IMG/VR virus record: IMGVR_UViG_3300029736_000004
DNA from: a virus
Lineage: Duplodnaviria > Heunggongvirae > Uroviricota > Caudoviricetes
DNA: 64,000 nucleotides
Direction: 5' to 3' (one strand)
Shown: positions 6,680-59,340 of the stretch, piece after piece
Position numbering within the stretch: position 1 is the stretch's first letter
How the letters are laid out: every line of letters begins with the position of its first letter
The notes under the pieces: generated by a model
Database searches by the model: none
What the model saw: only the letters and a program-made list of their open reading frames with translations
What the model was told of the DNA's origin: nothing
Program-made: the position numbers and the translations under genes

Positions 6680-6742
6680 TGTTAGAAAATTAAGATTAAA
6701 ACATACTAACACAAGATTGTTAACGAAAATTATTTTTCTAAT
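6680..6742. promoter_or_regulatory. operator-like motif cluster (inverted pair plus extra half-site) upstream of capsid gene
   Basis: TGTTAGAAAATTAA at 6680-6693 with inverted partner ACTAACA at 6705-6711, plus TTTTTCTAAT at 6733-6742. Confidence 0.45.
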
Positions 6743-6822
6743 GCTATTGACTAAATAACAAAGTGAGTATTGTCACCTCGTCAAAAGAATCTTCACGCCG
6801 CGCCCGAATTTAGGGTTTAACC

Positions 6823-14998: not shown

Positions 14999-15020
14999 AA
15001 CCCTGTGTGATCCTTCAAAT

Positions 15021-15235: not shown

Positions 15236-15244
15236 TGTGGATAT
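15236..15244 (-). promoter_or_regulatory. DnaA box in A-rich origin segment
   Basis: TGTGGATAT = ATATCCACA on the minus strand (8/9 to TTATCCACA) beside AAAAAGGATCTAAAAAGGATTAAAAAG; extra inverted iteron at 15262-15283. Confidence 0.4.
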
Positions 15245-15384
15245 GTGAATTGCGTCACTTAAGGTGTAAAAATCACCCTCAATAGTTGCTGTTCGATCGA
15301 CAAAGATCCTTATTCAATACTCCCACAAATCACACACTCCCTATCCTCTGAAAAACTAACTGAACCTAGCTTTCGGAGGAATCC

Positions 15385-16209: not shown

Positions 16210-16260
16210 CCTGACGTTATACGGCTACCAGCCAGTTAGTGACGTTGAACAATTACCGCA

Positions 16261-19200
16261 GTGGCGGGCACTCCATATGGAAAAAGCACTGGAAGAGAAA
16301 TACAAAGCCCACGCCAAAAAAACAGGGTGATCACCGCCGATGTAAGTGAGGTTATTTTGAACGATAAAAAAGACCGAATAGCGATAATCGACGCAATACA
16401 AACGGCAAACGCGAAAGAGCTAGCTGCGCTTTCAGAAATAAAAAAAGCACTTGAGTCTTACGGACGCAATCCTGATACCAGCGACGCACCACAAGGACGC
16501 GTAAGTCGTCGCCTGGCCCGAACAGGGAAAGCAGGGGCGCAACGCAACAGTTTCACACAGGGGCCGTATAAAGACCGGCTCCCTGCCAAGAAACAGAGAT
16601 TACGTATAAACAACGCTAGCGAGATAGATAATCCGCAAAAAGCAGCAGCAGATCACCGCACCGCTCATTCGGAATCAAAAACAGCACCGCTGGCTGAAGG
16701 CAAAGCCACGAAGTCATCACCTGAGCGCATTCAGTCGCTCACTTCTGACATTCAGCCTGCAAGGCAAGAACAACCAGTTAGAGAAAACCAGAGTATCGCT
16801 GGTGCACCGTTACGGGATAGCAACGGACGATTTGCCTCTCAGAAAAAAAACGAGGATCTCGCACGCCAGAATGAGCTACGCGCACAGGCAAAACTACAGG
16901 TTGGGTTCCTGCGAAAACTCGGTTCCATTATGGGGGTTGATGGTTCAGGGAAAGTCGACGATGGAGCTGTAACCGATGCTGCTGGGGTAGGTGCTGGTGG
17001 TCCACTATGGATGGCAGCACGGGGCGTATTTGATATCAGCCGCGAGATTACTGGTAAGGCTAAATCATTGAAAGAATGGATAGATAATGGCAACGACAAG
17101 GCGGCTGGCGCACCGGTGGTCGCAAAATCCCCCGCCATTACTTACCCGGCACCTGACAATGAAAGGAAGACTCCAGATAACGCGCCCGGTTCAGCAAAGG
17201 CATTTACTGAAGCCGTTAAAGAAAAATCTGTACGTGCGATCGAAGAACAAACGAAAGTTCTTCAACGCAACGACAGCCAGATAATTGATGAGCTGGAAAC
17301 TGTATCCGAAGAGATCCGGAAACTACGAAAGTCGCAGGAGAGTGGGCTAAAACTGAGCGACCTCCTCGGCGGTGGCGGATTACGTACCAAAATATCCCCT
17401 ACACGCGGTCGTAGCAGTGCACGTGGTGGCAACACGGGCCGCACTGGAGACAGTAAAGAAAACAAGGGCAAGAAGGGAAAAAACACCAGCAAACCTACTG
17501 AGACGGGCAGGAGTCAGGAAGGCAAAGAGGGGAAAAAAAATCAGCCAGGCAAAAACAACAGTGCGGGCGAGGAAAAAAATCGGACAAAAAATGCTGGTGG
17601 GAACGAGGGTAGTACCTCACCAAAATCATCGGGTGATAAATCTTCAGTTAAAACCAGAGCAGGTAAGGTCACTGAAGAAAGTGTAGCCAAAACGGTGACT
17701 GGTGGAGCGGCAGGGAAAGACGCTGGTAAAGCGGCAACTTCCGCTGGGGAAAGCCTTACCAGGAAAGAGGCGGGTAAGGTTGCCGTTGCCACTGGTGAAA
17801 ACATCGCGAAAAAAGAAGCTGGAAAAGTGGCTCTCAAAGCTGCCGGAGGTGTTGCCGCAAGGGCCGGATTCAGGGCGATTCCAGTCATCGGCCAGGTGGC
17901 TATGGTTGGTTATGATGCCGTAGACGGCTACAGCGACACAGAAGCGCAGAGGGCGACTTATAACCTGAAGGAAGGGCAGGACGTTACAACACAGCAAAAG
18001 AGCGCCTACGCCGCTGCTAACGTCCTGGATATGGGCGGTCTGGTGACGGGAGCGGCTAACCTCATTGGCGAGGGGATGTCCGCGCTAGGCTTTGAAGGTG
18101 TCGGACAAAAACTTCAGAGTCTTGATACCAGCAATATCGCTCGCGGCATAAATAGTTCTATCGACGCGTCGAAGAACGCATTCAGCAGCCTAAAAGAATC
18201 GTTCTCATCAAGCAGCGAAGGCACTGCGCAGGTTAAGAAAGCCGTTGAAGATGGCACCAAGCAAACGGTAGCCGCAATTAATGATCTGGCCCGACAGCTA
18301 CAGGGCGGGCGCAGAGGTGAGGATGGCGTGGGTGAACACGGCTACAAATCGCCAGACGAATTTAAAGCGCCTGAAAAAAATACAATAACGGCTGATCTGA
18401 ATATAGGCGGAAGCAACGCCAAGAACAGGAATTACCGGAATAACAACCTGGGGAACCTGGTTTTTGCAAATCAGGAGGGGGCGGTACTGGAAGCGCCGAA
18501 CGCGAAAGGCGAACAGCGTTTTGCGCGGTTTAATACGCCCGAAGAAGGGATTCGGGCATTGGCAAACCAGGTATCGAGTTATTACAACGGTACAAGTGCT
18601 GCCGCCGGGTATCAGAAGCTGCAAACAGTATCCAGCATCATTTCAAAATGGGCACCACCAACAGAGAACAACACCAATCAGTACATTGAAAACGTCAGCA
18701 AATATCTCGGGGTATCCCCCAACGATAAAATAGACGTTAGCAACCCTGAAGTTATGACGCACCTTGTTCGCGCCATTGCGACGAAGGAGGGGGGTAACCC
18801 GGCGGTTAACAACAATTTCATCAAAACAGCTCTTGGTTCATTCAACGCTAAAACTGGGCGTTGGGAAGGGCAATTCAATGATGAAACGCTGGAACACATT
18901 AATAAAATCCAGAAGGAAAAGGGCGGTCCTCTAATCGCTCGCAACTCCCAATATAGTGTCGGTAGCAAAGTCAAATACGCCAACGGCTCATCTTCTGCTA
19001 TTCCTGCGTCAAGCGTAGCCCAGGCTGTAATGCCTAGCCCTACTGACGTGGTTCAACACGCACAGGCAGCTAAAAAACCGAAGGCAGCTCAACAGGAAAA
19101 TGCCCAGGCGATCAGCCACGCGAAAGCTAGTGGCAATTCTTCCGCCGCAGCCGGATTGACGGAGCGGTTAATGAGTGCAGACGGTGTTGGGGGCGTCATC

Positions 19201-20124
19201 GCCGGGATAGTTGGGGGAGATCCCAATATGGGGCTAAATCTCGGCCCTGTCAGTTCTCCGGAAGAGATGTCCTCGTTAGCAGCAAAAGCCAAGCAATTGG
19301 ATAAGTTTCTTGTTGAAAAAATATCCAGAGCAACGGGCAAAAACTTTAGTTTCCAGAAGGCGGAACAGATCGCCGATATCACTACGGCTATACAGCAAAA
19401 GCGCAACGTTAACCGCGATACAGAAACCATTGGCCTGCTTCCGGAGAGTCCGGCAACCATCAGCGAGAAGCGTGCCACATCGACACCGGCGGGTGTGCAG
19501 ATGTACGACAACGGCTACAAGGTGGTTGAAGGTGAGGACAGGGGCTTCTTTGGCTCGCTATTTGATTCAACTGTGTCAGGGCTTAACCAGGTAGGCTCCG
19601 CCGTCCTCCCCGCCGTTGGAGATAACCTCTCGCGACTTGTGGGCGGTATTGATAGCACCGGAATGTTAAATGACTTTGTATTGCAGTCCTCTGGACAGAA
19701 TACCGATGTTGCTCGCGCTATTAGTCCGTTAACAAGGAGTGTTGGCGGTTGGCTGAATGGTGGCATACAGAAAACGGCGGATACGATCAGGGACACAACT
19801 GGCGCAATCAATCAAAGCCTGTTTGCTTCGGGCGTGGCTGCTAAAGAACCGTTCCTTGCAATGCCTCCGCAGCTACCAATCGTCACGGACCTCGCACGAA
19901 GCGGAATAAGGCAGATGCTAACAACAGATACCGCAAATAACGATCCGGCTATGTTGAAAGCACTGGAGAACGTTTATTCCGTTCTCAAAGAGATTCTTGG
20001 CGTAAGCAAAGACAACCGAAAAGGCGATCAGGACAAAGTTGTGAACACATCACAACCACAACCTCGTCAGCGTGCCAGCACGACTATCAATGACCCATCT
20101 CTTGACAAATTACTGGAGGATTAA
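16261..20124 (+). CDS. tail tape-measure / injection protein (Sit-like)
   Basis: 1287 aa, Lys/Gly/Ala-rich, directly upstream of baseplate genes; start uncertain (GTG 16261 or GTG 16327 coupled to a 17-codon upstream ORF). Confidence 0.5.
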   Translation: MAGTPYGKSTGREIQSPRQKNRVITADVSEVILNDKKDRIAIIDAIQTANAKELAALSEIKKALESYGRNPDTSDAPQGRVSRRLARTGKAGAQRNSFTQGPYKDRLPAKKQRLRINNASEIDNPQKAAADHRTAHSESKTAPLAEGKATKSSPERIQSLTSDIQPARQEQPVRENQSIAGAPLRDSNGRFASQKKNEDLARQNELRAQAKLQVGFLRKLGSIMGVDGSGKVDDGAVTDAAGVGAGGPLWMAARGVFDISREITGKAKSLKEWIDNGNDKAAGAPVVAKSPAITYPAPDNERKTPDNAPGSAKAFTEAVKEKSVRAIEEQTKVLQRNDSQIIDELETVSEEIRKLRKSQESGLKLSDLLGGGGLRTKISPTRGRSSARGGNTGRTGDSKENKGKKGKNTSKPTETGRSQEGKEGKKNQPGKNNSAGEEKNRTKNAGGNEGSTSPKSSGDKSSVKTRAGKVTEESVAKTVTGGAAGKDAGKAATSAGESLTRKEAGKVAVATGENIAKKEAGKVALKAAGGVAARAGFRAIPVIGQVAMVGYDAVDGYSDTEAQRATYNLKEGQDVTTQQKSAYAAANVLDMGGLVTGAANLIGEGMSALGFEGVGQKLQSLDTSNIARGINSSIDASKNAFSSLKESFSSSSEGTAQVKKAVEDGTKQTVAAINDLARQLQGGRRGEDGVGEHGYKSPDEFKAPEKNTITADLNIGGSNAKNRNYRNNNLGNLVFANQEGAVLEAPNAKGEQRFARFNTPEEGIRALANQVSSYYNGTSAAAGYQKLQTVSSIISKWAPPTENNTNQYIENVSKYLGVSPNDKIDVSNPEVMTHLVRAIATKEGGNPAVNNNFIKTALGSFNAKTGRWEGQFNDETLEHINKIQKEKGGPLIARNSQYSVGSKVKYANGSSSAIPASSVAQAVMPSPTDVVQHAQAAKKPKAAQQENAQAISHAKASGNSSAAAGLTERLMSADGVGGVIAGIVGGDPNMGLNLGPVSSPEEMSSLAAKAKQLDKFLVEKISRATGKNFSFQKAEQIADITTAIQQKRNVNRDTETIGLLPESPATISEKRATSTPAGVQMYDNGYKVVEGEDRGFFGSLFDSTVSGLNQVGSAVLPAVGDNLSRLVGGIDSTGMLNDFVLQSSGQNTDVARAISPLTRSVGGWLNGGIQKTADTIRDTTGAINQSLFASGVAAKEPFLAMPPQLPIVTDLARSGIRQMLTTDTANNDPAMLKALENVYSVLKEILGVSKDNRKGDQDKVVNTSQPQPRQRASTTINDPSLDKLLED

Positions 20125-20129
20125 GACCG

Positions 20130-20504
20130 ATGCTTTATGAGATTGATGCCCGCCTTCAGACAAACGAGAGCGGGGTGGTGATCGCTGAAGGCGACACAAA
20201 CGCCTGGATAGCCCGACTCGATGAATGGCTACGGACACCAAATGGCAGCGTTTACGGATTGCCGTCATGGGGGAATCCGATGGAGGAGTTCAAACACGAA
20301 CCCTTCGGTTCTGATACGTCACACATTGTTGAAGTGGCGATTGAAGCGCGAATGATGACGAAGCTACAGCAGGACTTACCAGGGCTTGGACTCCAGGCGA
20401 TCCGCTGCGCGACTGTCTCTGAAGACCAGTTACTAATTAGCTTCCAGGCAAAAGGAGGCACCGTGAATGTTGTTATGCAGAAAGATAGCGGAGATACAGC
20501 GTGA
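20130..20504 (+). CDS. baseplate protein (gpW/gp25-like)
   Basis: 124 aa immediately before the J-like gene, matching the P2-type W-J-I order; GGAGGA SD. Confidence 0.4.
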   Translation: MLYEIDARLQTNESGVVIAEGDTNAWIARLDEWLRTPNGSVYGLPSWGNPMEEFKHEPFGSDTSHIVEVAIEARMMTKLQQDLPGLGLQAIRCATVSEDQLLISFQAKGGTVNVVMQKDSGDTA

Positions 20505-21931
20505 GTATTACCGAATTACTGGACAAGTTTAATGCCAAGCTGAACGAAAACCCCTGGTGGGCGCGATTTGTAAACAGCCAGTTTATTCAAATGCAGTCCG
20601 TTTTGGGCGCGCAGATTGTTTATATTGCGCGTACATTTGCAAGCCGTGCACTTACAGAAGGATTCATTTCCACCGCGACGCGTAGAGCAAGTATTCTCGC
20701 GGCAGCGGAAGACCGTGGCTATGTCGGTCGTTTGGTCGATGCGTCATACGGCACTGTTTCCATCACCAACAAAACCGACAGGGATATTACTCTACCCGGA
20801 GGGGCTGAATTACTGACAAGTGACCAGACACCAATTGCAACCAGCAGTAGTGTTGTTATCCCTGCTGGTGAAACAGTACCCGGCATAGAAGTAAAACAGC
20901 ATGAAGCAGTCAGCGTAACGTTCGACGTGGTGCAAGAAACACCATTCTTGACGCTGTTACTTTCCCGTGAGTTAACAGCAGAAGTCGCCAGCCTGGAAGT
21001 TGTCGTGATAACTAATGGTGTCGAGGAAAAATGGACACATAACCCCCTGTTCCGCATGTCCAGGGATAACAGTAAACATTATGTGTTGGTTTATAAGCCG
21101 ACAGAACAGATCGGCGTGCGCTTCGGTGATGGATCAATGGGGATGATGCCAGCGGCAGGGAGTCAGGTACGCATTGACATTATGGCAAGCCTCGGTGATT
21201 ACACGCTGGCTGAAGGCCAGAAACTTGAACCAGCAGGGAACATCTCCGGGTATGTCGAATCACTGGAAGTAAAAACCGATTCGATCATTTCTGGCGGTGG
21301 TGGCATGGAAACTACCGAGGAAACCCGAAACAGGGCGCAGTATTATGTGGCCTACGATGAGCAGGTTGTTTGGGGCGGTGATTACCGCCAGTTCATTCAG
21401 AACGTGGTCAGTGGCACGTCATGGCTTAACGTGTGGGGGGAGGCGCTACAGGAGAAAATAACGGGCTTTGATGTGCGTAATATCAACAAAATTTTCTTTT
21501 GTGGGCATAAGCCCGGCGTAACACAGGAAGCTCTGAAAACAGAGATATTATCAGCCCTTGAGAGTATCCCTAATGAGCTGAATAAGAAGTTCGAATACGT
21601 CGCCACCAATGAACAGCCGTTCAATATCAAATTTACCGGTATCGTAAAAAAGAGTGTGCTGGTGGATGACGCGCTAACTGCAATTAAAGCGGCACTGGAG
21701 GAGAACTTCGGTAAAGACTCCATGTCATTTAACCAGCTATTGCAGAGTGATGACGACTCACAGCAATGTTATGCACAGGTCAAAGTAAAAGATATCTGGC
21801 GAGTAATCGAATCGCTGGATATGTTCCTGTCTTATGACGTGGCTACGCAGAACATGAAAGAAGCAGTGTACTTTAATGATTTTGTTTATCTGGACGTGGA
21901 ATCATCAACGTTCAGCATAACCTATCCGTAA
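20501..21931 (+). CDS. baseplate J-like protein
   Basis: 476 aa; GTG start overlaps upstream stop (GTGA); position between W-like and I-like genes. Confidence 0.5.
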   Translation: MSITELLDKFNAKLNENPWWARFVNSQFIQMQSVLGAQIVYIARTFASRALTEGFISTATRRASILAAAEDRGYVGRLVDASYGTVSITNKTDRDITLPGGAELLTSDQTPIATSSSVVIPAGETVPGIEVKQHEAVSVTFDVVQETPFLTLLLSRELTAEVASLEVVVITNGVEEKWTHNPLFRMSRDNSKHYVLVYKPTEQIGVRFGDGSMGMMPAAGSQVRIDIMASLGDYTLAEGQKLEPAGNISGYVESLEVKTDSIISGGGGMETTEETRNRAQYYVAYDEQVVWGGDYRQFIQNVVSGTSWLNVWGEALQEKITGFDVRNINKIFFCGHKPGVTQEALKTEILSALESIPNELNKKFEYVATNEQPFNIKFTGIVKKSVLVDDALTAIKAALEENFGKDSMSFNQLLQSDDDSQQCYAQVKVKDIWRVIESLDMFLSYDVATQNMKEAVYFNDFVYLDVESSTFSITYP

Positions 21932-36283: not shown

Positions 36284-36297
36284 TTAATTTTCTAACA
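36284..36297. promoter_or_regulatory. operator-like site (TTAATTTTCTAACA)
   Basis: Reverse-orientation perfect copy of the TGTTAGAAAATTAA 14-mer. Confidence 0.45.
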
Positions 36298-37485: not shown

Positions 37486-37514
37486 TGTTAGAAAATTAAA
37501 TTGATGTTTCTAAT
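37486..37514. promoter_or_regulatory. operator-like inverted pair
   Basis: TGTTAGAAAATTAAATTGATGTTTCTAAT; additional half-site CTTTCTAATGTT at 37574-37585. Confidence 0.45.
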
Positions 37515-37599
37515 CAAGAATGTATGATTTATATCGTCACTAAAAAACAGCATCTGATAAAAATTCTGTTGATCTTTCTAATGTTCAGGCTTATATTCA

Positions 37600-37830
37600 T
37601 GCCGTCGTAGCAAATTCTGCGACCGGGTTTAGCAGCCTGAATGTTAGTGCGGACAACCGCAGATATCCGATATTGCGGTATTTTTGTGTCCGTAAAACCG
37701 CGTTACGCCCAAATTATGGTGGGGCGTGATGGGGAGGCTTCGGCCTGCTGGTTTCACTAACGCCAGTCTGCTAACCCCGTCACGTCCTGCCACCTGTTTA
37801 GCAGCGGGTAGCAGGTTGTTAAACCTGTTA
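37600..37830 (+). ncRNA. candidate c4-like antisense RNA / structured leader
   Basis: TTTAGCAGC at 37628 and 37798 is complementary to CTGCTAA at 37768; GAGGCTTCGGCCTGC tetraloop hairpin; lies upstream of icd-like and Rha-family genes. Confidence 0.3.
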
Positions 37831-37844
37831 GTGAGGCCGTAACT

Positions 37845-38069
37845 ATGGTTAATGCCAATCCTTGCTCACGTCCAGAATTCATCTGGCGTTTTCACTCCCT
37901 GCAAAAACACTGCGATCACTTCGCAATTGCCGCAACTGAAAAAGAAGCCCGTTCTCTGATCCCGGATCAGTATGGCGTTCTCACTGGTCGTTTCTCTACT
38001 TCCCCACAACCAAACACCAATCCCTGGTATCGCAATATTACCAATCCCGGCATTGTGGAGGCTCACTGA
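37845..38069 (+). CDS. small protein translationally coupled to antirepressor (icd-like position)
   Basis: 74 aa; stop overlaps the start of the Rha-family gene (TGATG). Confidence 0.35.
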   Translation: MVNANPCSRPEFIWRFHSLQKHCDHFAIAATEKEARSLIPDQYGVLTGRFSTSPQPNTNPWYRNITNPGIVEAH

Positions 38070-47389: not shown

Positions 47390-47400
47390 TGTTAGAAATT
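47390..47400. promoter_or_regulatory. operator-like half-site (TGTTAGAAATT)
   Basis: Overlaps the start region of the VRR-NUC gene. Confidence 0.4.
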
Positions 47401-47402
47401 TG

Positions 47403-47846
47403 ATGCGAAGACGCAGGCATCATAGTGCGTATTCTGAAATATCCCCGCACGCTGCTGCACTAAGAGAGTTAGAAAGAAATCCTGACTTATTAAAACGGAA
47501 TTACGAACATTACGAACAGGTTCGCGTTCTGGATTGGCTGTATCGCAACATGCGATACGTGTATGAGCACACACACTCAACACCGAACGGCGGCCTGAGA
47601 GGCAAAAGGACAGCCATTAAGATGGTGGCAGAAGGTCAGAAGAAGGGCTATCCGGACCTTTCTATTGACCTTGCTCGTGGTGGGTATCACGGAATGCGCA
47701 TTGAGATGAAGCACGGGAGAAACCGTCTGACTCCCGAACAGCTCGTCTGGATGACCCGCCTCACGGAAGCAGGCTATTACTGCTTTGAGGCGCGCAGTGC
47801 CGATGAAGCCATAAAAGCTATCACGGAATATGTAAATCTTGATTAA
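47403..47846 (+). CDS. VRR-NUC domain nuclease
   Basis: GYPDLSIDLARGGYHGMRIEMKHGRNRLTPEQLVWMTRLTEAGY matches the VRR-NUC signature. Confidence 0.5.
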   Translation: MRRRRHHSAYSEISPHAAALRELERNPDLLKRNYEHYEQVRVLDWLYRNMRYVYEHTHSTPNGGLRGKRTAIKMVAEGQKKGYPDLSIDLARGGYHGMRIEMKHGRNRLTPEQLVWMTRLTEAGYYCFEARSADEAIKAITEYVNLD

Positions 47847-48444: not shown

Positions 48445-48458
48445 TGTTAGAAAACTAA
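48445..48458. promoter_or_regulatory. operator-like site (TGTTAGAAAACTAA)
   Basis: 20 bp upstream of the 48479 gene; ATACTAATA variant half-site at 48431. Confidence 0.4.
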
Positions 48459-49688: not shown

Positions 49689-49720
49689 ATGTTAGAAAAT
49701 TAAAATTGTTTTTCTAACAT
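49689..49720. promoter_or_regulatory. operator-like perfect palindrome
   Basis: ATGTTAGAAAATTAAAATTGTTTTTCTAACAT; another site TGTTAGAAAGTAAA at 49840-49853. Confidence 0.5.
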
Positions 49721-50548
49721 ATTGATTATGGGGTTAACTTAACATAGAATTTTTCGTGCTGGTGGGGAGCTTCCCATGTCGCTTGCGGGTTTGATAGTCA
49801 CTTCATTGTCTTTCCCCACCAGCATCAAACAAATTTAAGTGTTAGAAAGTAAATTTTAAGGTAAGGGAAAGCTCCGGCACCGTGCAAATACATGCCCGGC
49901 AGGTTTAGTGCGTAAAGTGGCTTCAGCGAGAGCATTTTACGGAGTAAACGACAGTGACTTGAGCCACGGAAGGTCTTTTTATGGTGTTCATTGATGATGA
50001 TCTGGCAGTGAGTATGTTAAGTGGGCCAGGCTGCATCGGGTCATCATCAGTGCACATCCTCAACGTTAAGGAGGCGCAGAGTTGGGTTTTCCTCTTATTT
50101 TGCTGACTCTGAGTCTCCTTAACGTTGCGGTAATGCACCTATGCGGATGTGGCCTTGCATTGTGTCTTGAAAGAATGGGGTAAGGCCGGGGATATCCCCA
50201 GGGGGAGGCACCCCCGCTGCAACGAACAGCCACAGACGGCAGTCGAGTGATGGAAACGTGCAAAGACTTTAAACCTCGTTACGGCTGGCGTGGCAAACGC
50301 GACAACCGAGACAGAGCGGTGACGGGCGGAGAGAGAGCCGCTTCAAGATAAAAGCCGACTATGGATTCCTTTCTGCGGGCCTTTGAAAGTGAATCTTGCT
50401 CAGGCAGTCGGCTTTTATGTTGATACGTAGCGATAGCCGCGACAGGCGCGGCGGCAAGTATGGCGGGGTAGTGACTCCTTCCCCCTTATGACGCCGATTT
50501 GCCAGGCTGGCCATACGCCTAAGTGGCAATACCGCGAGTGGGATATTT

Positions 50549-51034: not shown

Positions 51035-51111
51035 GATGGTGTAGCTCAGTAGGATAGAGCAGCAGCCTTCTAAGCTGTCGGTCGGTGGTTCGAATCCACC
51101 CACCATCGCCA
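51035..51111 (+). tRNA. tRNA-Arg (anticodon TCT)
   Basis: Cloverleaf: acceptor GATGGTG/CACCATC, D-arm TAGCTCAGTAGGATAGAGC, anticodon loop CTTCTAA, T-arm GGTGGTTCGAATCCACC, CCA end. Confidence 0.85.
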
Positions 51112-51116
51112 ATTTA

Positions 51117-51203
51117 GGGGAGTTAGTCCGTAGGGGTAGCGGGGTAGACTGTAAATCTACTGTCATTGCGACTCGGATGGTTCGACTCCATCACTCCCCA
51201 CCA
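51117..51203 (+). tRNA. tRNA-Tyr (anticodon GTA)
   Basis: Acceptor GGGGAGT/ACTCCCC, anticodon stem-loop GTAGA-CTGTAAA-TCTAC, long variable arm, T-loop TTCGACT, CCA. Confidence 0.8.
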
Positions 51204-51207
51204 AATT

Positions 51208-51283
51208 GCCGGTTTAGCTCAGTTGGTAGAGCAGTCGCTTTGTAAGCGAATGGTCAGCGGTTCGATCCCGTTAACCGGCACCA
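51208..51283 (+). tRNA. tRNA-Thr (anticodon TGT)
   Basis: Acceptor GCCGGTT/AACCGGC, D-arm GCTCAGTTGGTAGAGC, anticodon loop TTTGTAA, T-loop TTCGATC, CCA. Confidence 0.8.
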
Positions 51284-51296
51284 ACACAACAGGTAA

Positions 51297-51361
51297 GGGT
51301 ATTTTGCGACATCGGAGATCGCCGAGCTTGGCAGAGGGTTCGAATCCCTACGAAGTACCCT
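51297..51361 (+). other. tRNA-like element lacking a canonical anticodon arm (possible degenerate tRNA)
   Basis: Acceptor-like GGGTATT/AGTACCC, D-arm-like GCGA...TCGC, T-arm GAGGGTTCGAATCCCTA, but only 11 nt between D and T arms; extended outer stem CACAACAGGTAAGGG/CCCTTGCCGTTGTG. Confidence 0.25.
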
Positions 51362-51471
51362 TGCCGTTGTGATGAATGCACAGGCTGATGTGCCGCAACT
51401 ACAGTAGTGCGCGCTTTGCGGGGCTTGCTACAACCCTGTGTCGGAGTTCAGCACCGACCATCACAATCACT

Positions 51472-51558
51472 GGAGAGTAGGGAGCATGGTGCTCAAGCGG
51501 TCTTGAAAACCGTCCCATTGCGCAAGCGATGATGGTTCGATTCCATTACTCTCCGCCA
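51472..51558 (+). tRNA. tRNA-Ser (anticodon TGA)
   Basis: Acceptor GGAGAGT/ACTCTCC, anticodon stem-loop GCGGT-CTTGAAA-ACCGT, long variable arm, T-arm GATGGTTCGATTCCATT, CCA. Confidence 0.8.
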
Positions 51559-51849
51559 GCGCAACGTTAAGAGTATTTGGCTAATTAAGCGAATGCCGGA
51601 AGCAGAACCGGATCACCAAATGCGTACAGGCGTCATCGCCGCCCAGTCAGCCAAATGCTCTTACCATTGCGGTGAATGCGGCTAAGCGCACGCGGAACAG
51701 TTAAAACAGTAAAGGTGGTCTTTTTACTGGCGTAACGAGCATCCATAAGTGATCCGGCGTTAATTGTTAACTGGTTAACGTCACCGGGAGGCACCCGGCA
51801 CCGCAACCTAACAGCAATGGCGTTTTGTCTTAAAAGGTGGCTGCAAGTG

Positions 51850-51978
51850 ATGGATTTTTGGGCGTTTGCCGATAAAAACCCGGAGTGGACATTATTGTTT
51901 CTGCTGGTGGTTGCATACGGGGTAGAGCAAGCGGCAAAAGCCTTACGCGGTTCTGGCAAAAAGCGTAAGCGTAATTAA
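51850..51978 (+). CDS. small hydrophobic ORF (42 aa) between tRNA genes
   Basis: MDFWAFADKNPEWTLLFLLVVAYGVEQAAKALRGSGKKRKRN; not in the ORF track (under 60 aa); AAAGGTGG upstream. Confidence 0.25.
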   Translation: MDFWAFADKNPEWTLLFLLVVAYGVEQAAKALRGSGKKRKRN

Positions 51979-51987
51979 CAGTAATCT

Positions 51988-52063
51988 GGCCCTTTAGCTC
52001 AGTGGTTAGAGCGGGCGACTCATAATCGCACGGTCACCGGTTCAAGTCCGGTAGGGGCCACCA
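51988..52063 (+). tRNA. tRNA-Ile2-like (anticodon CAT; Met not excluded)
   Basis: GGCCCTTTAGCTCAGTGGTTAGAGCGGGCGACTCATAATCGC...GGTTCAAGTCCGGTAGGGGCCACCA closely resembles E. coli ileX-type tRNA (recalled). Confidence 0.8.
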
Positions 52064-53473: not shown

Positions 53474-53505
53474 TGTTAGTAAATTAATATTAATTTTCTA
53501 ATACA
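53474..53505. promoter_or_regulatory. operator-like inverted pair upstream of Lpa-like gene
   Basis: TGTTAGTAAATTAATATTAATTTTCTAATACA. Confidence 0.45.
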
Positions 53506-53580: not shown

Positions 53581-53973
53581 ATGGAGCAAATCAGTAGCGC
53601 CGAAATAGCGGATATCATGATCAGGGCTGACTGCTATCTGACGGTCACCGAAATCACCAGCCGTGCAAAAGCACAATATCCTCACCTTCATGTGTCGCGC
53701 GTAAACGTAAATAACATCATACGTTTTTTTGTTCGTTCCAGTCGTGCCATTTGCGAAATAGACGACCGCGTATACCCCCGGAAATATTGGTTACATGGCC
53801 TGAATGGATACCAGTTCAAGGTGCGCGGGCGCACTCCTGAATTCGGTCGGCTGTTGGTGAAAAACACCAACCGAAAGATAGAAGCTCAATTACGAAAGGA
53901 GCAGCGTCAGTTGGTGGCGATGACTAACCAGCTATGGAACGCCGCTGTGAAAAAACGTGAGGCTTCCCTATGA
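53581..53973 (+). CDS. putative late-gene activator (Lpa-like, by position)
   Basis: 130 aa immediately upstream of pacA with an operator-like palindrome in its promoter region; no motif-level support. Confidence 0.3.
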   Translation: MEQISSAEIADIMIRADCYLTVTEITSRAKAQYPHLHVSRVNVNNIIRFFVRSSRAICEIDDRVYPRKYWLHGLNGYQFKVRGRTPEFGRLLVKNTNRKIEAQLRKEQRQLVAMTNQLWNAAVKKREASL

Positions 53974-55334
53974 CGTTAATTAACTGGGAAGCGCATCGAG
54001 CTAAGTTCCTGGAGTTAAGAGAAGAAACCGGGATCACCATAAAAGAATATTGCGAGCAGCATGACCTCAGCTTTAACACCGCCAGAAAGCATCTCAATAT
54101 GAAAAAAAATGAGGTTAAGGCGAAAGCAAAGGCTGCCGGGAAAAGTACAAAACAGCGCGCAAAAAGCAGCGCCACCGGCTCAAAAAAAGAGCAAAAAAAG
54201 GCTGATAAAAGCACAGAATTTACAAAAACTGACAAATCGTTAGCTGGTGGACGGTTCCGCGCCATGCCGCAAAAACAAAATGCGGATCACAAAGAAAAGC
54301 CAAGTAATAACAACAAGATACACAAGGATGTGAAGGGATCATTTTGTGATGAAATGGGAGAAATGATCCCTAAAAGCAGCGAAAAAGCCCAACGAAACAA
54401 GGGATCATTGCAAATGATCCCTGACTCATCAGCTCAAAGCGCCACTTTGCCTGCCACCAACGTCGCCCGTGAGATGATGAAGAACGGCGCGACTGAACAT
54501 TTACGACTTGCGATACAGATGGCGCAGGAACGAGCAATTCAGTATCAGGCCATCGTTGACCAGGAAGCGGAGCGACTACAGGAAGAGATTGACGCCCTCG
54601 GCGATACACAGCCAGAGGGGATGCACCCAGGGCAGCGTCTTCTCGGCCTAATAAGCGATGCGGCCTACTACATGAATGACTTTATCAGTAGGTTGGCAGC
54701 CATCTACCAGACCGAGCAGAAGCTACGCCAGGGGGATGAAAAACTTGCGCAGGGCGCGCGTCAGCAGGCATTCAGGGAGGCTGAGGCCAGAGAAAAACTG
54801 GCGATTGCCCGCCTGCAGGCCGAGCAGCGTGGCAAGGAGATTGAGTATCGCATTGGCGCTGACGCACGCGCCGCCAGGGTTATCGCCGCCGCTATACGTA
54901 TGCGTGAGCGCGAGGAGCTGGACGATATAGGCGTAGCTGAATATATCGAGCGGCAGGGCGTCAGTGTCCCAGCTATCCTGGCGGCACGAGCGGCAAAAGC
55001 GATCTCACTTCTGGAGCCTCCGGTTTCTGACGTTAACGATGTTGATGATGAGCAACTGGATAAAGAGGCGAAGCAGTTTGCCGAGCAACAAGCTGGACTA
55101 CCACAATGGCTTGCACAACGCCGGGCTGAAGTAGCGAAAATCGTTGATAGGCTTGGGATGGGGGATTACGACCGGAACGGAGAACGTAAAGCCGGTGAAT
55201 TTGAGGCCAATGATGAAGACCTGAATATAGACCCTTCCGCCACGGCTGATATCTACGGTGATTATGACGCGGGGGATACCGGTTTTGATGCTGTAGATGA
55301 CGAGATTGTGATAGACCAGCCGGAGGATGACTAA
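53970..55334 (+). CDS. pacA: terminase small subunit (PacA-like)
   Basis: 454 aa directly upstream of the large terminase; N-terminal HTH-like region, Lys-rich linker, internal GATC-hexamer cluster. Confidence 0.6.
   Translation: MTLINWEAHRAKFLELREETGITIKEYCEQHDLSFNTARKHLNMKKNEVKAKAKAAGKSTKQRAKSSATGSKKEQKKADKSTEFTKTDKSLAGGRFRAMPQKQNADHKEKPSNNNKIHKDVKGSFCDEMGEMIPKSSEKAQRNKGSLQMIPDSSAQSATLPATNVAREMMKNGATEHLRLAIQMAQERAIQYQAIVDQEAERLQEEIDALGDTQPEGMHPGQRLLGLISDAAYYMNDFISRLAAIYQTEQKLRQGDEKLAQGARQQAFREAEAREKLAIARLQAEQRGKEIEYRIGADARAARVIAAAIRMREREELDDIGVAEYIERQGVSVPAILAARAAKAISLLEPPVSDVNDVDDEQLDKEAKQFAEQQAGLPQWLAQRRAEVAKIVDRLGMGDYDRNGERKAGEFEANDEDLNIDPSATADIYGDYDAGDTGFDAVDDEIVIDQPEDD
54333..54422. 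other. pac-like site: four GATC hexamers as two inverted pairs inside pacA
   Basis: GGGATCATT...AAATGATCCC at 54335-54370 and again at 54401-54420; GATC at 54337, 54365, 54403, 54416. Confidence 0.45.
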
Positions 55335-56842
55335 TGGCTGGTGGTCGTAAGATTAAGTGCGTCACCAGTGATCCACGTTGGCGCGATATGGTTATCAGGT
55401 ATCGATACAACTTTACCCAGGCGGTTGTCGATATTTTTGGGATGTTCCCCTCCCATCAGCAGCAGCAGATCATTCAGTCAGTGCAGGAGACGGGGAGCAG
55501 GACGACCGTTACGTCCGGACACGGAACGGGTAAGTCATCCCTTACCGCGATGTTGCTACTAATTTTTATGATCCTGTTCCCCGACGCCCGCGTCATTATT
55601 GTTGCGAACAAAATAGGCCAGGTAAAAACAGGCGTATTCAAATACGTGAAACAGTTTTGGGCGAATGCTGTTAAGCGCCACGGCTGGTTACAGACCTATT
55701 TTGTCCTGTCTGACACCATGTTTTATGAGCGTTCCCGTAAAGGGATATGGGAAGTGCTCTGTAAAGGTTATCGACTCGGTAACGAAGAGGCACTGGCGGG
55801 GGAGCACGCGGAGCATTTACTGCTAATCCTTGATGAAGCATCGGGCATATCCGATAAGGCGATTAACGTCATGACGGGGGCGTTAACGCAGAAAGATAAC
55901 CGTATGCTCATGCTTTCCCAGCCTACGCGTCCAAGCGGTTACTTTTATGAATCCCACCATTCAAGGGCAAAGGCAGAAGGCAATCCGGAAGGAGTCTGGA
56001 CGGCAATAGTCCTTAACTCTGAAGAATCTCCATTCGTTGAACCGAGCTTTATTCGTGAGAAATTGCTGGAGTACGGCGGCAGGGATTCGCTGGAGTACAT
56101 GGTTAAGGTGCTGGGCCAGTTCCCGCGTGCAATTAACGGGTATTTGCTTGGTCGTGATGAGTGCGACCGCGCCGCACGGCGTAAAGTGTTGCTGGAGAAA
56201 GATTGGGGCTGGGTAGCGACCGCTGACGTCGGTAATGGTCGCGACAAATCGGTGCTCAATATATGCAAAGTATCCGGTTATCGTGAGAAACGACGCGTTG
56301 TGAACTTTAAGATACTGGAGATGCCAGGCACTATGGACCCGTTGGCTTTTGCCGACTTTATCTATAACGAATGCACTCCTGATAAATACCCGAACATCAC
56401 CATTGCTGTGGATGCTGATGGCTTTGGTTCAGATACGTGTGCGCAGCTTGTCCGCCGTGGTGCTAATCCCGTTCGCATCCGTTGGGGTAAGCCTATGTTT
56501 GCGCTAAGAGACAGAGAACGCTTTGTCAATCAGCGTGCTTACGCCAATATTATGGCAGGGGATGCCATTAAATCAGGGCGTATGCGTATCGATAGTGACC
56601 CCAAAACCGCAGATCAGGCATCAAAAATCCCGTATATGCTTAACGAAGAAGGGAAGGTAGCGATGATGCGCAAGGAGCACATGCGGCAGAAGTTAAACAT
56701 CAAGTCGCCGGACAGATGGGATACCTACTGCTTCACTATGCTGGTGGATTACGTGCCTGCTAATGAAGACATTGGCGCAGAACTCGCAACATTCCGCGAT
56801 CAGGTGTTGGCAGAAGTGGATATTCCTGATATTGACATTTAA
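55334..56842 (+). CDS. pacB: terminase large subunit (PacB-like)
   Basis: Walker A SGHGTGKS, Walker B LLLILDEA, C-terminal nuclease-like acidic residues; GGAGGA SD. Confidence 0.75.
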   Translation: MAGGRKIKCVTSDPRWRDMVIRYRYNFTQAVVDIFGMFPSHQQQQIIQSVQETGSRTTVTSGHGTGKSSLTAMLLLIFMILFPDARVIIVANKIGQVKTGVFKYVKQFWANAVKRHGWLQTYFVLSDTMFYERSRKGIWEVLCKGYRLGNEEALAGEHAEHLLLILDEASGISDKAINVMTGALTQKDNRMLMLSQPTRPSGYFYESHHSRAKAEGNPEGVWTAIVLNSEESPFVEPSFIREKLLEYGGRDSLEYMVKVLGQFPRAINGYLLGRDECDRAARRKVLLEKDWGWVATADVGNGRDKSVLNICKVSGYREKRRVVNFKILEMPGTMDPLAFADFIYNECTPDKYPNITIAVDADGFGSDTCAQLVRRGANPVRIRWGKPMFALRDRERFVNQRAYANIMAGDAIKSGRMRIDSDPKTADQASKIPYMLNEEGKVAMMRKEHMRQKLNIKSPDRWDTYCFTMLVDYVPANEDIGAELATFRDQVLAEVDIPDIDI

Positions 56843-56843
56843 A

Positions 56844-56870
56844 AGCCCCGGCGATTCGGGGCTTGTGGGT
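56844..56870 (+). terminator. terminator-like hairpin between convergent pacB and c1 candidate
   Basis: AGCCCCG-GCGATT-CGGGGCT hairpin. Confidence 0.4.
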
Positions 56871-56879: not shown

Positions 56880-57917
56880 TTACCAGAGTTTTGCCGCGTA
56901 CATCGTTTGTGTGAATGTGTACCCATAGCGTTCTTCAACGCTTTTACCGTATTTTTTCCTGGCTTCAGTAAGGCGGATGCCTGTCAGGTCATCGCCGGAG
57001 GCAATCATAACTTCCAGTAGTTCCAGGTCCATTTTATCCAGCCTTGCCATTGCATCTTTAGCCTCTTGAATTTTCCGGCTAACGATCTGGTGTATGGCTG
57101 GATCGGCTTCGGCCAGCATTTTATCTGATTTGTTTTTTAAACTCTGATTGCGGATATCAATGTTTCTCAGGATATATGACTTCACGACATAGCTTGGCTG
57201 CTGCTTTTCCAGATCACGAACCCGATAAAGGTCAAATTCGCCGAGAAGTCCGCACGGAAGCGGTTTAATGCCAGTGTAAATGGTAAGGGTACGGCGCTCA
57301 CCAACGTTGTTAACAACGGGAATCTCTGTGTTTGCTTTTCTTGCAAAGATCAGCGCACCGTGCGCACCCACTCGGAAGCGTGAAAGTCCATTGTTGCCCT
57401 CGATATTGGTGGTAATCACCACATCGGTATAACCTTCTTTTCTTGCGCGGTATACCTCGCCCTCACGTTCAGCGGCGAAGAATCTGCGTTCTTCTTCAAG
57501 CGCACCGACAACCTGTGAAAATATCCTGTTTTTCATGCTTTTCTTTATAGTTTTATCGTATTTTTTCAGCAGGTCTTCGCGCGTAAATGTTCTCGTTGTG
57601 GTTGCGCTTTGCATAACGATATGCGTACTCTGATTAGTATCCTCAACAATGAATGGGATCGGTAAATAAACCGACTCAACAATGTTTGAGGCTTTGTCAT
57701 CATCCTTGCGACACAGATCAACAAAGGCTTTCCATTCGGCTATGCATTTTTCAGCTTCTTCTAATACAGCCGGATCATGTGTTAATGCAACATGGCGAAA
57801 TTCCTCGCCAACATAACTGGTATCATGGAAAACAGAGTTTGCGACCACCAGCTCTTTCCACCGTTCGGCGGTTTGCAGGAACCGTTTGTACTCATTCTCG
57901 ATCGACTTCTTACTCAT
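56880..57917 (-). CDS. candidate immunity repressor (c1 position)
   Basis: 345 aa between pacB and the rox-like site, as c1 lies in P1-family pac-c1 regions; operator-like sites at 57936-57946 and 58021-58030 in its upstream region. Confidence 0.35.
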   Translation of the reverse strand: MSKKSIENEYKRFLQTAERWKELVVANSVFHDTSYVGEEFRHVALTHDPAVLEEAEKCIAEWKAFVDLCRKDDDKASNIVESVYLPIPFIVEDTNQSTHIVMQSATTTRTFTREDLLKKYDKTIKKSMKNRIFSQVVGALEEERRFFAAEREGEVYRARKEGYTDVVITTNIEGNNGLSRFRVGAHGALIFARKANTEIPVVNNVGERRTLTIYTGIKPLPCGLLGEFDLYRVRDLEKQQPSYVVKSYILRNIDIRNQSLKNKSDKMLAEADPAIHQIVSRKIQEAKDAMARLDKMDLELLEVMIASGDDLTGIRLTEARKKYGKSVEERYGYTFTQTMYAAKLW

Positions 57918-57931
57918 TATTCCTACTCGAT

Positions 57932-57946
57932 TTAGTTTTCTAACAT
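57932..57946. promoter_or_regulatory. operator-like site (TTAGTTTTCTAACAT)
   Basis: 15 bp upstream of the c1-candidate start; variant ATTAGAAAAT at 58021-58030. Confidence 0.45.
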
Positions 57947-58102
57947 AAAAGTCCTGTGACAAATTTATGCTGAATAACAAGGTGAGTAAAGGATAAAACC
58001 GCTTTTTTTTGATTGTTCCTATTAGAAAATGTAGCCAGGAACGGCTACCGCATGGCTGACGGATTTGCGAAGTGATCTGGTCGGTGTTTTTTTGGGAAAA
58101 AA

Positions 58103-58134
58103 GCCCCGATTCCAACTTTAAATAATTGGCATTA
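58103..58134. other. rox-like site-specific recombination site
   Basis: CAACTTTAAATAAT-TGGC-ATTATTTAAAGTTA: 14-bp inverted arms with 4-bp spacer; 31/32 identical to the reverse complement of the D6 rox site as I recall it. Confidence 0.65.
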
Positions 58135-58296
58135 TTTAAAGTTAGGCTATAATCTCCAGTAAACAGGTAGTATTGACAAGGATGAAAAATCATGCCTCGA
58201 ATCAAAGGCTTGAATTTTGAAAATTAACTTATAACTACCCTGTCAGTTTTCTATTTTTCATGTAGCGTTATCTGTATATAGAGGTTTAATAGTTTC

Positions 58297-59325
58297 ATGG
58301 GTGAACTAGTTATCTCCGGCGGTTCTGGTGGTTTTCTGCGCGATATTGGCACCGAATACCAGGAAGCTGCAAAAAACTTTATGCAGTTCATGAACGACCA
58401 GGGAGCTTATGCCCCAAATACGCTTCGAGATCTCCGTCTGGTGTTTCATTCCTGGGCGCGGTGGTGTAACTCGCGCCAGCGCCCCTGGTTCCCGATTACG
58501 CCGGAAATGGCCCGCGAGTATCTTCTCCAGTTGCATGAGGCCGATCTGGCTTCGACCACCATTGATAAGCACTATGCCATGCTTAACATGCTGCTTTCGC
58601 AATGTGGCCTCCCGCCGCTCTCGGACGATAAAAGTGTGTCTCTGGCCATGCGGCGCATCCGGCGCGAAGCGGCAACGGAAAAAGGCGAGCGAACAGGCCA
58701 GGCTATACCGTTGCGGTGGGATGATCTGAAATTGCTCGACGTGTTGCTGTCCCGTTCCGAGCGGCTGGTGGACCTGCGCAATCGGGCGTTTCTCTTCGTG
58801 GCATACAATACCCTGATGCGTATGTCAGAAATCTCGCGCATCCGCGTCGGAGATCTGGAACAAACAGGTGACACTGTAACGCTGCATATTTCACACACGA
58901 AGACCATCACGACCGCCGCCGGACTTGATAAGGTGCTTTCTCGTTACACTACCGCCGTACTGAACGACTGGCTGGAGGTGTCCGGACTTCGAGAACATCC
59001 GGACGCGGTGCTATTCCCGCCAATACACCGCAGTAATAAGGCCAGAATCACGACAACGCCCCTTACTGCACCTGCAATGGAGAAAATATTCAGCGATGCC
59101 TGGGGGTTGCTGAACAAACGAGATGCCACGCCGAACAAAGGAAGATACCGGACGTGGACAGGCCATAGTGCGCGTGTTGGTGCGGCAATTGATATGGCTG
59201 AGAAACAGGTGTCAATGGTCGAGATCATGCAGGAAGGCACATGGAAAAAGCCCGAAACACTTATGCGATATTTGCGCCGTAGCGGGGCATCCGTTGGTGC
59301 AAATAGTCGCCTGATGGATTCATAA
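58297..59325 (+). CDS. dre: Cre-family tyrosine recombinase (Dre-like)
   Basis: WARWCNSRQRPWFPITPEMAREYLLQL...LPPLSDDKSVSLAMRRIRRE aligns with Cre WAAWCKLNNRKWFPAEPEDVRDYLLYL...SNAVSLVMRRIRKE; C-terminal WTGHSARVGAAIDMA catalytic region; rox-like site 160 bp upstream. Confidence 0.7.
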   Translation: MGELVISGGSGGFLRDIGTEYQEAAKNFMQFMNDQGAYAPNTLRDLRLVFHSWARWCNSRQRPWFPITPEMAREYLLQLHEADLASTTIDKHYAMLNMLLSQCGLPPLSDDKSVSLAMRRIRREAATEKGERTGQAIPLRWDDLKLLDVLLSRSERLVDLRNRAFLFVAYNTLMRMSEISRIRVGDLEQTGDTVTLHISHTKTITTAAGLDKVLSRYTTAVLNDWLEVSGLREHPDAVLFPPIHRSNKARITTTPLTAPAMEKIFSDAWGLLNKRDATPNKGRYRTWTGHSARVGAAIDMAEKQVSMVEIMQEGTWKKPETLMRYLRRSGASVGANSRLMDS

Positions 59326-59326
59326 A

Positions 59327-59340
59327 TTAATTTTCTAACA
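59327..59340. promoter_or_regulatory. operator-like site (TTAATTTTCTAACA)
   Basis: Perfect reverse-orientation 14-mer just after the dre stop. Confidence 0.45.

What the first reader, a model, noticed from the sequence alone, without database searches (positions are those of the whole stretch)
56880..57946. Candidate immunity repressor at the c1 position, 345 aa
The minus-strand gene between pacB and the rox-like site occupies the c1 position of P1-family phages and has operator-like sites in its own upstream region, consistent with autoregulation. I could not recognise sequence similarity to P1 C1 from memory, so the call rests on position only. If it is the repressor, its different operator sequence would define a distinct immunity specificity.
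Basis: inference. Interest (0 to 1): 0.5.

Follow-up and report, generated by a model that had tools for sequence, protein, structure and literature searches.

The report
D6-type C1 prophage repressor gene
This gene is the master repressor (C1) of a phage-D6-like plasmid prophage, a distant but real relative of the phage P1 C1 repressor. It is already annotated as such in near-identical plasmids, so the call is correct but ordinary.

Summary
A 345-aa gene lies on the minus strand at 56880-57917, between pacB and a rox-like site. One strong copy of TGTTAGAAAAyTAA sits 15 bp upstream of its ATG.

The protein is 81% identical to phage D6 'c1, phage repressor protein' and 99.7% identical to proteins so annotated on Escherichia plasmids. 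Residues 7-243 are homologous to P1 C1: hhalign probability 98.6%, the same PHROG (1678), and the same precomputed Pfam family (PF27008) in the relatives of both.

The motif occurs 12 times against 0.57 expected. It sits where P1 has mapped C1 operators: c1, lpa, repL and c4-icd-ant. All sites are kept in D6. A 29%-identical Citrobacter homologue has a changed motif, TTCTAAGG, at several equivalent places.

The operator is therefore distinct from P1's but the same as D6's. What differs from D6 is the c4 antisense RNA and its targets, which carry compensatory changes.

Function in D6-type phages has not been tested experimentally, as far as I could find.

The parts
56880..57917 (-). c1 coding sequence, 345 aa: the D6-type C1 repressor. 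Residues ~1-243 form the C1 core shared with P1 C1. Residues ~244-345 form a helical C-terminal extension specific to the D6-type branch.
   Evidence: ORF; 81% identity to D6 c1; homology to P1 C1; family alignment; invariant F13 G37 R41 W62 P86 P88 I90 R157 R159 V183 G187 Y214 C222; model, pLDDT 86.8; codon-position pattern
57921..57924 (-). Shine-Dalgarno-like AGGA, 3 nt upstream of the ATG
   Evidence: sequence; identical in D6
57932..57945 (-). operator-like site TGTTAGAAAACTAA, 15 bp upstream of the c1 ATG (candidate autoregulatory operator)
   Evidence: 27 bits; identical site at D6 199-212
57934..57990 (-). Candidate c1 promoter region (inferred; 8 of 12 consensus matches each). Option 1: TTGTCA (57957-57962), 17-nt spacer, AAAACT (57934-57939); the operator covers the spacer and -10. 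Option 2: TTTACT (57985-57990), 17-nt spacer, TAAATT (57962-57967); the operator lies about +13 to +26.
   Evidence: read. The region is conserved with D6. The promoter scan (threshold 9 of 12) reported neither, so this is inference.
58020..58033 (+). weak second operator-like site TATTAGAAAATGTA (3 mismatches), in inverted orientation about 75 bp upstream of the first
   Evidence: TTAGAAAA core kept in D6 although the flanks diverge; below 8 bits in the PWM scan
56843..56864 (.). GC-rich hairpin AAGCCCCGgcgattCGGGGCTT between the convergent pacB and c1 stops; likely bidirectional terminator (inferred)
   Evidence: sequence; not listed by the terminator scan because the T run is short
53474..53503 (.). 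Bivalent (inverted pair) operator, 78-107 bp upstream of lpa (starts 53581). Positional equivalent of P1 Olpa.
   Evidence: P1 Olpa lies 71 bp upstream of lpa
37486..37519 (.). Operator plus a degenerate inverted partner, about 90-105 bp upstream of the c4 a1b1 targets (37591) and the C4 RNA (37712-37797). Equivalent of P1 Oc4/Op51.
36284..36297 (-). Operator about 170 bp upstream of repL (starts 36469). Counterpart of P1 OrepL/Op53.
6680..6743 (.). Divergent pair of sites, 6680-6693 (+) and 6730-6743 (-), between the D6 orf52 homologue (starts 6663, -) and the major capsid gene (starts 6823, +)
   Evidence: (16.8 bits for the second site)
47390..47403 (+). operator-like site (2 mismatches) at the 5' end of the pmgM homologue
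48445..48458 (+). operator-like site 5 bp upstream of the pmgS homologue's start
49690..49853 (.). Bivalent operator 49690-49719 plus a single site 49840-49853, just downstream of pmgS and upstream of the tRNA cluster
59327..59340 (-). Operator immediately after the dre stop, 58 bp upstream of the orf117-orf116-dut operon (starts 59398)
   Evidence: same position in the Citrobacter relative

Best explanation
The gene encodes the C1-type master repressor of a D6-like, P1-family plasmid prophage.

The protein:
- Its N-terminal ~240 residues are a divergent homologue of P1 C1.
- This core is predicted to adopt a two-domain, Tus-like fold with central beta strands.
- By analogy with P1 C1 and Tus, it should bind an asymmetric site as a monomer (inferred).

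The operator:
- Its operator is about TrTGTTAGAAAAyTAA. This shares a TCTAA core with the P1 operator ATTGCTCTAATAAATTT when read on the other strand.
- At least 13 copies, some as inverted 'bivalent' pairs, lie in front of lpa (late-gene activator), repL (lytic replication), the c4-icd-ant immunity operon, several other operons, and c1 itself.

Consequences (inferred):
- Occupancy of these sites keeps lytic functions off and confers superinfection immunity.
- The site overlapping the c1 promoter or 5' leader gives negative autoregulation.
- Relief presumably comes through the Ant-type antirepressor, which is held in check by the C4 antisense RNA.

Differences from P1: there is no Coi/ImcAB upstream of c1, and the protein carries a ~100-aa helical C-terminal extension of unknown role.

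Shown in silico: homology, synteny, motif enrichment, positional conservation and covariation of the motif.
Inferred: DNA binding, repression, monomer stoichiometry and autoregulation.
For: Identity and annotation:
- 81% identity to D6 c1, annotated 'phage repressor protein, similar to C1 of P1'.
- 99.7% identity to plasmid proteins so annotated.
- PMC6799933 calls the D6-like homologue the C1 master lytic repressor.

Homology to P1 C1:
- BLASTP 21% identity over 241 aa, E 2e-7.
- NF041318 E 2.5e-5, colinear 9-244 against 10-249.
- hhalign 98.6%, E 1.3e-15.
- The D6-family profile retrieves a P1-type member, P0030, at E 1e-12 among 106 cluster representatives.
- phrog_1678 matches both proteins.
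- PF27008 is recorded for the relatives of both.

Synteny: the order pacA-pacB / c1 / rox / dre matches P1 pacA-pacB / c1 / lox / cre.

Motif:
- 12 sites against 0.57 expected; it is the top non-Chi k-mer in the window.
- All sites have counterparts in D6, although the DNA is only 70-91% identical.
- Sites lie where the P1 record annotates mapped C1 operators: Oc1 and Olpa, Oc4 and OrepL.
- The motif co-varies with the protein. The Citrobacter plasmid (C1 29% identical) has TTCTAAG 14 times against 4.7 expected, including upstream of c1, lpa, rdgC and ref. The Pantoea plasmid has caaTTCTAAGGa upstream of c1 and lpa.

P1 background: 22 dispersed asymmetric 17-bp operators; control of RepL and Lpa (PMC8546580).
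Against: - In the library I could search I found no experiment on any D6-type C1. The annotation rests on homology and position.
- NCBIfam's equivalog cut-off (500 bits) is far from met (23.9 bits).
- The local Pfam copy gives no hit, and no classical DNA-binding motif is found.
- The operator 15 bp from the ATG is unusually close, and no promoter reached the scan's threshold.
- P1's partners Coi and ImcAB are absent, and Lxc is reported absent in a D6-like plasmid. The regulatory circuit therefore cannot simply be copied from P1.
- The Tus similarity is structural only: hhalign 0.6% and TM-scores of 0.33-0.44. The two models were built from largely the same set of homologues.
Confidence: 0.85

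Rival explanations
1. The protein is a C1 homologue, but the dispersed motif is not its operator. The motif would instead be a shared early-promoter element, or the site of another phage or host factor, and C1 would bind elsewhere.
For: - The motif is AT-rich and contains -10-like hexamers (GAAAAT, TAGAAA).
- It sits in promoter regions by construction.
- No binding data exist.
Against: - The sites coincide with the places of mapped P1 C1 operators.
- They share the TCTAA core with the P1 operator.
- They occur as inverted bivalent pairs, like P1 operators.
- The motif changes in step with C1 divergence in Citrobacter and Pantoea relatives. A sigma-70 element would not do that.
Confidence: 0.07
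2. The protein is primarily a Tus-like replication-fork or transcription barrier, or another DNA-transaction factor, rather than an immunity repressor. The c1 label would then be a historical carry-over.
For: Tus is the only significant structural match.
Against: - P1 C1, a demonstrated repressor (PMC8546580), gives the same Tus match, so the fold does not argue against a repressor function.
- The sites are at promoters of lytic genes, not arranged as polar fork traps around an origin.
Confidence: 0.03
3. The gene is a decaying or non-functional remnant in a defective plasmid prophage.
For: Many D6-like plasmids are truncated (PMC6799933). pK91 carries only a fragment with c1.
Against: - The reading frame is intact over its full length.
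- The third-codon-position divergence pattern is 85.5 / 91.9 / 57.2%.
- The ribosome-binding site and the operator are conserved.
- The window is colinear with a complete D6 genome.
Confidence: 0.03

Closest known systems
Phage D6 C1 (AAV84948 / ASR76322; GenBank AY753669, MF356679) and the 'phage repressor protein' of D6-like Escherichia/Salmonella plasmids
   Same: - Full-length 345 aa, 81% identity to D6 C1 and 99.7% to the NZ_CP099353.1 protein.
- Same position between pacB and rox/dre.
- Same operator motif at the same ten loci.
- Same upstream region and ribosome-binding site.
   Different: - 19% amino-acid divergence, spread along the protein and strongest in residues 211-240 and 271-300.
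- This allele is the rarer one: 7 plasmid records at >=95% identity against 102 at 80-90%.
- The linked immI (c4 and its targets) has a different specificity from D6.
Phage P1/P7 C1 repressor (NCBIfam NF041318; 283 aa)
   Same: - Homologous core of ~240 aa with shared invariant residues.
- Same genome position.
- Dispersed asymmetric operators, single and bivalent, at c1, lpa, repL and c4.
- TCTAA operator core.
- Predicted Tus-like fold in both.
   Different: - About 20% identity.
- The operator sequence differs: the window has no match to ATTGCTCTAATAAATTT.
- An extra ~100-aa helical C-terminal domain.
- No coi/imcAB upstream.
- The operator lies 15 bp from the ATG, against about 85-110 bp in P1.
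E. coli Tus (replication terminus-binding protein; PDB 1ecr, 4xr0)
   Different: - No sequence similarity (hhalign 0.6%), and no Pfam Ter hit in any of 21 family members.
- TM-scores of only 0.33-0.44.
- Different biology: transcriptional repression against fork arrest.

Membership tests
P1-type C1 repressor family (Pfam PF27008 / phrog_1678 / NCBIfam NF041318) | Sequence homology to P1 C1 over the core of the protein | tested here: met
   hhalign 98.6%, E 1.3e-15, 232 columns. phrog_1678 E 1.7e-159 for the window protein and 2.6e-140 for P1 C1. PF27008 is recorded for the close relatives of both. The window protein itself could not be scanned against PF27008, because the local Pfam copy lacks it.
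P1-type C1 repressor family (Pfam PF27008 / phrog_1678 / NCBIfam NF041318) | Reaches the NCBIfam equivalog cut-off for 'phage repressor protein C1' (500 bits) | tested here: not met
   23.9 bits, E 2.5e-5. It is a distant subfamily, not an equivalog of P1 C1.
P1-type C1 repressor family (Pfam PF27008 / phrog_1678 / NCBIfam NF041318) | Gene located in immC, between pacB and the lox-type site and cre-type recombinase, and transcribed towards pacB | tested here: met
P1-type C1 repressor family (Pfam PF27008 / phrog_1678 / NCBIfam NF041318) | Many dispersed asymmetric operators, single and bivalent, in front of c1, lpa, repL and c4 | tested here: met
   12-13 sites against 0.57 expected. Their positions match P1's annotated operators. 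This is in silico only.
P1-type C1 repressor family (Pfam PF27008 / phrog_1678 / NCBIfam NF041318) | Protein binds the operator and represses transcription; confers immunity | not testable with these tools
   Needs gel-shift or footprinting assays and an immunity assay.
P1-type C1 repressor family (Pfam PF27008 / phrog_1678 / NCBIfam NF041318) | Partner proteins of the P1 circuit: Coi/ImcAB upstream of c1, and the Lxc corepressor | tested here: not met
   No Coi, ImcA or ImcB homologue in the window or in D6 (tblastn E > 1). Lxc was not tested here; it is reported absent from a D6-like plasmid (PMC6799933). The Ant/c4 arm is present.
Tus / Ter-binding protein family (Pfam PF05472) | Sequence match to the family | tested here: not met
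   hhalign of A4 against E. coli Tus: probability 0.6%. No Ter hit in 21 members at E <= 10.
Tus / Ter-binding protein family (Pfam PF05472) | Tus fold | tested here: met
   [not shown]
Helix-turn-helix CI/Cro-type phage repressors | HTH_3, XRE or similar DNA-binding domain | tested here: not met
   No Pfam domain. No match by sequence in the PDB.

The most novel reading that the evidence does not exclude
The whole C1 repressor family of P1-like phage-plasmids (P1-type, D6-type and intermediates; about 100 clusters at 50% identity) would be a Tus-fold DNA-binding protein family re-used as transcriptional repressors. That would explain why C1 has no helix-turn-helix and why its operator is a long asymmetric site, which I recall it binds as a monomer. 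Specificity would then be tuned around a constant TCTAA core: TCTAAT in P1, TCTAAC in D6 and this window, TCTAAG in Citrobacter and Pantoea relatives. D6-type members would add a C-terminal helical module that may take over roles played in P1 by Lxc or by looping.
Probability: 0.55. Interest if true: 0.55.

Novelty: already known. Interest (0 to 1): 0.3.

Why it matters
For annotation, the result settles the gene as the c1 repressor of a D6-like phage-plasmid. It also supplies a usable operator consensus and a map of the putative C1 regulon.

For immunity typing of D6-like plasmids, which are common in E. coli and Salmonella (152 plasmid records carry a homologue), the C1/operator pair here is D6-like. 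The c4 antisense system is what has diverged. Heteroimmunity within the group is therefore more likely set by immI than by immC, as I recall for P1 and P7.

The Tus-fold prediction, if confirmed, would give the first structural rationale for how P1-family C1 repressors read asymmetric operators.

Tried and rejected
Searches that gave nothing significant:
- Local Pfam scans of the whole protein, the C-terminal 108 aa and all 21 family members.
- PDB sequence searches with the family profile and with the C-terminal domain.
- hhalign of the family against the E. coli Tus sequence: no signal.
- tblastn of P1 Coi, ImcA and ImcB against the window and D6: no homologue.
- The sigma-70 scan found no promoter at or above 9 of 12 matches for c1. 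The promoters I give are weaker matches read by eye.

Motif discovery in distant relatives:
- A mismatch-tolerant script timed out.
- Exact k-mers found only Chi.
- Seeded 12-mers were swamped by Chi and GC-rich repeats.
- The TTCTAAG signal was found only after inspecting the c1 and lpa upstream regions. The Pantoea plasmid has only 3 copies, not enriched, so that case rests on position alone.

Relatives of little use:
- pSa1423-90k (46% identical) looks like a frameshift-ridden assembly and was dropped.
- pK91 carries only a fragment of the phage.

Unavailable resources:
- The afdb50 fold library was not available.
- The primary papers were not held: Sauer & McDermott 2004, Gilcrease & Casjens 2018, Lobocka 2004. 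I therefore could not check whether the D6 operator motif was already published.

Rejected idea: that the 441-aa ORF starting at 58205 is the real gene. Its extension crosses rox and is not conserved in D6.

Full report
**What is there**

The minus-strand gene runs from its ATG at 57917 to its stop at 56880-56882 and encodes 345 aa. An AGGA lies 3 nt upstream of the ATG. The mechanical ORF continues upstream to 58205, but that extension crosses the rox-like site and is not alignable with phage D6, so 57917 is the start.

- pacA at 53970-55334 and pacB at 55334-56842 on the plus strand.
- A rox-like site at 58113-58144, one mismatch from D6 rox.
- A Dre-like recombinase at 58297-59325, 94% identical to D6 Dre.

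The window is colinear with the D6 genome in reverse orientation at 70-91% nucleotide identity. It is 99.2% identical to an Escherichia marmotae plasmid, NZ_CP056699.1. It is therefore part of a D6-like, P1-family phage-plasmid.

**Identity of the protein**

tblastn against phage records finds only D6. There the gene is annotated 'c1, phage repressor protein; similar to the C1 repressor of phage P1' (AY753669) and 'prophage repressor' (MF356679). Identity is 81% over all 345 residues.

Among plasmids, 152 records carry a homologue. Seven are at least 95% identical and 102 are of the D6 allele type; several are annotated 'phage repressor protein'. Identity to D6 by codon position is 85.5 / 91.9 / 57.2%, the signature of a protein under purifying selection.

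**Homology to P1 C1**

- BLASTP gives 21% identity over 241 residues, E 2e-7.
- NCBIfam phage_rep_C1 matches colinearly at E 2.5e-5, far below its equivalog cut-off.
- A profile of nine D6-type sequences against a profile of nine P1-type sequences gives hhalign probability 98.6%, E 1.3e-15. It covers residues 7-243 of this protein and 8-248 of P1 C1.
- An exhaustive HMMER search with the D6-type profile finds 106 cluster representatives. Most are 250-290 aa. One is a P1-type member at E 1e-12.
- PHROGs puts both proteins in phrog_1678.
- The protein database's precomputed Pfam assignment is PF27008 for the relatives of both. That family is missing from the local Pfam copy, which explains the empty scan.
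- The joint alignment has 13 invariant residues, among them R41, P86, P88, R157, R159 and C222.

The last ~100 residues (244-345) have no counterpart in P1 C1. They are predicted to form two long helices plus a small helical bundle. They match nothing by sequence.

**The motif**

TGTTAGAAAATTAA with up to two mismatches occurs 12 times against 0.57 expected. A PWM adds a thirteenth site at 6730-6743. It is the most repeated k-mer in the window after Chi.

The sites lie at these places:
- 15 bp upstream of c1.
- As an inverted pair, 78-107 bp upstream of lpa.
- About 170 bp upstream of repL.
- About 100 bp upstream of the c4 a1b1 targets and the C4 RNA.
- In front of the orf117-dut operon, directly after dre.
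- In front of pmgS and pmgM.
- After pmgS, as an inverted pair plus a single site.
- Between the capsid gene and the orf52 homologue.

The P1 record annotates experimentally mapped C1 operators at the equivalent places: Oc1a-e and Olpa, and Oc4/Op51 and OrepL/Op53. Every site in the window has a counterpart at the homologous D6 position.

Read on the other strand, the motif (TTAATTTTCTAACA) shares a TCTAA core with the P1 consensus ATTGCTCTAATAAATTT (consensus from PMC8546580). The P1 consensus itself has no match in the window at up to three mismatches.

In a Citrobacter plasmid whose C1 is 29% identical, the enriched motif is TTCTAAG(G), 14 copies against 4.7 expected. Copies include sites upstream of c1, lpa, rdgC/hrdC and ref, and directly after the cre-like gene. 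A Pantoea plasmid has caaTTCTAAGGa upstream of c1 and lpa. The motif thus changes with the protein while its positions stay. This is the best in-silico evidence that this protein family reads these sites.

**How it most likely works**

By homology and by the operator map, the protein is the master repressor. It keeps lpa, repL, the immI operon and other early operons off in the plasmid prophage, and it probably limits its own synthesis.

Two weak promoter candidates (8 of 12 matches each) can be read upstream of c1. One places the operator across its spacer and -10. The other places it at about +13 to +26. The scan's threshold was not reached, so this step is inference.

Coi, ImcA and ImcB are absent. 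Lxc is reported absent from a D6-like plasmid (PMC6799933). The Ant/C4 arm is present: Rfam finds C4 at 37712-37797 and c4-a1b1 at 37591-37643.

**Immunity specificity**

Against D6 the divergence lies in immI. In a region that is 91% identical overall, the differences cluster in the C4 recognition elements and are compensatory:

| Element | Window | D6 |
|---|---|---|
| a1/a2 target | TTAGCAG | TTGACAG |
| C4 loop pairing with a | CTGCTAA | CTGTCAA |
| b1/b2 target | GTTAGTG | CTTACG |
| C4 loop pairing with b | CACTAAC | CGTAAG |

This resembles what I recall of P1/P7 heteroimmunity.

**Fold**

An AlphaFold2 model built from a 21-sequence alignment has mean pLDDT 86.8 and pTM 0.58.
- Foldseek gives four hits with E <= 1e-3. 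All are Tus (3.6e-8 to 9e-7, probability 1.00). The next hit is at E 0.19. TM-scores are only 0.33-0.44.

There is no sequence-level link to Tus, and the two models share most of their alignment members. Tus binds a long asymmetric site as a monomer (own knowledge), and the P1 operator is asymmetric. The fold would therefore fit the family's known behaviour. I found no paper linking C1 and Tus in the searchable library, which is not proof of novelty.

**Verdict**

The gene is the already annotated D6-type c1, so the finding itself is ordinary. The by-products worth keeping are the operator map, the operator-protein covariation across the family, the c4 compensatory changes relative to D6, and the predicted Tus-like fold of the C1 family.

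Noticed in passing
window 37580-37850 (C4 RNA 37712-37797; a1b1 37591-37643): The c4 antisense RNA loops and their a1/b1/a2/b2 targets differ from D6 by compensatory changes: a TTAGCAG / CTGCTAA here against TTGACAG / CTGTCAA in D6, and b GTTAGTG / CACTAAC against CTTACG / CGTAAG. The surrounding DNA is about 91% identical. This predicts an immI specificity different from D6.
   Followed up: partly
[not shown]
   Followed up: yes
L011 (NZ_CP099371.1) 5785, 13624, 18384, 19886, 26035, 26215, 39800; L010 (NZ_CP134736.1) 19889, 26308: Distant C1 homologues (29-31% identical) in Citrobacter and Pantoea phage-plasmids come with a different repeated motif, (a/t)aTTCTAAGG. In the Citrobacter plasmid it sits upstream of c1, lpa, rdgC and ref and directly after the cre-like gene; in the Pantoea plasmid upstream of c1 and lpa. 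The TCTAA core is shared with the P1 and D6 operators.
   Followed up: partly
whole window: Chi (GCTGGTGG; seen as CCACCAGC) is strongly over-represented. CCACCAGCA alone occurs 20 times and is the commonest 9-mer. The same holds in the Pantoea and Citrobacter relatives.
   Followed up: no
window 58113-58144 and 58126-58153: The rox-like site differs from D6 rox by one base at the outer end of one arm (G for A). A near-consensus sigma-70 promoter (TTGGCA, 16-nt spacer, TATAAT; 11 of 12) overlaps it and points towards the dre-like gene.
   Followed up: no
window 51035-52060: Four tRNA genes (Rfam tRNA hits at 51035, 51117, 51208, 51988) lie downstream of the bivalent operator at 49690-49719. 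D6 annotates three tRNAs in the homologous region.
   Followed up: no
L009 (NZ_CP029871.1, Salmonella Typhi pK91) 14000-21900: A conjugative IncFIB resistance plasmid carries only a fragment of a D6-like element (phd/doc, dut, cre-like, a 67%-identical c1, and a truncated pacB). The fragment ends at an IS26. It is an orphan c1 that could confer immunity without a phage.
   Followed up: no
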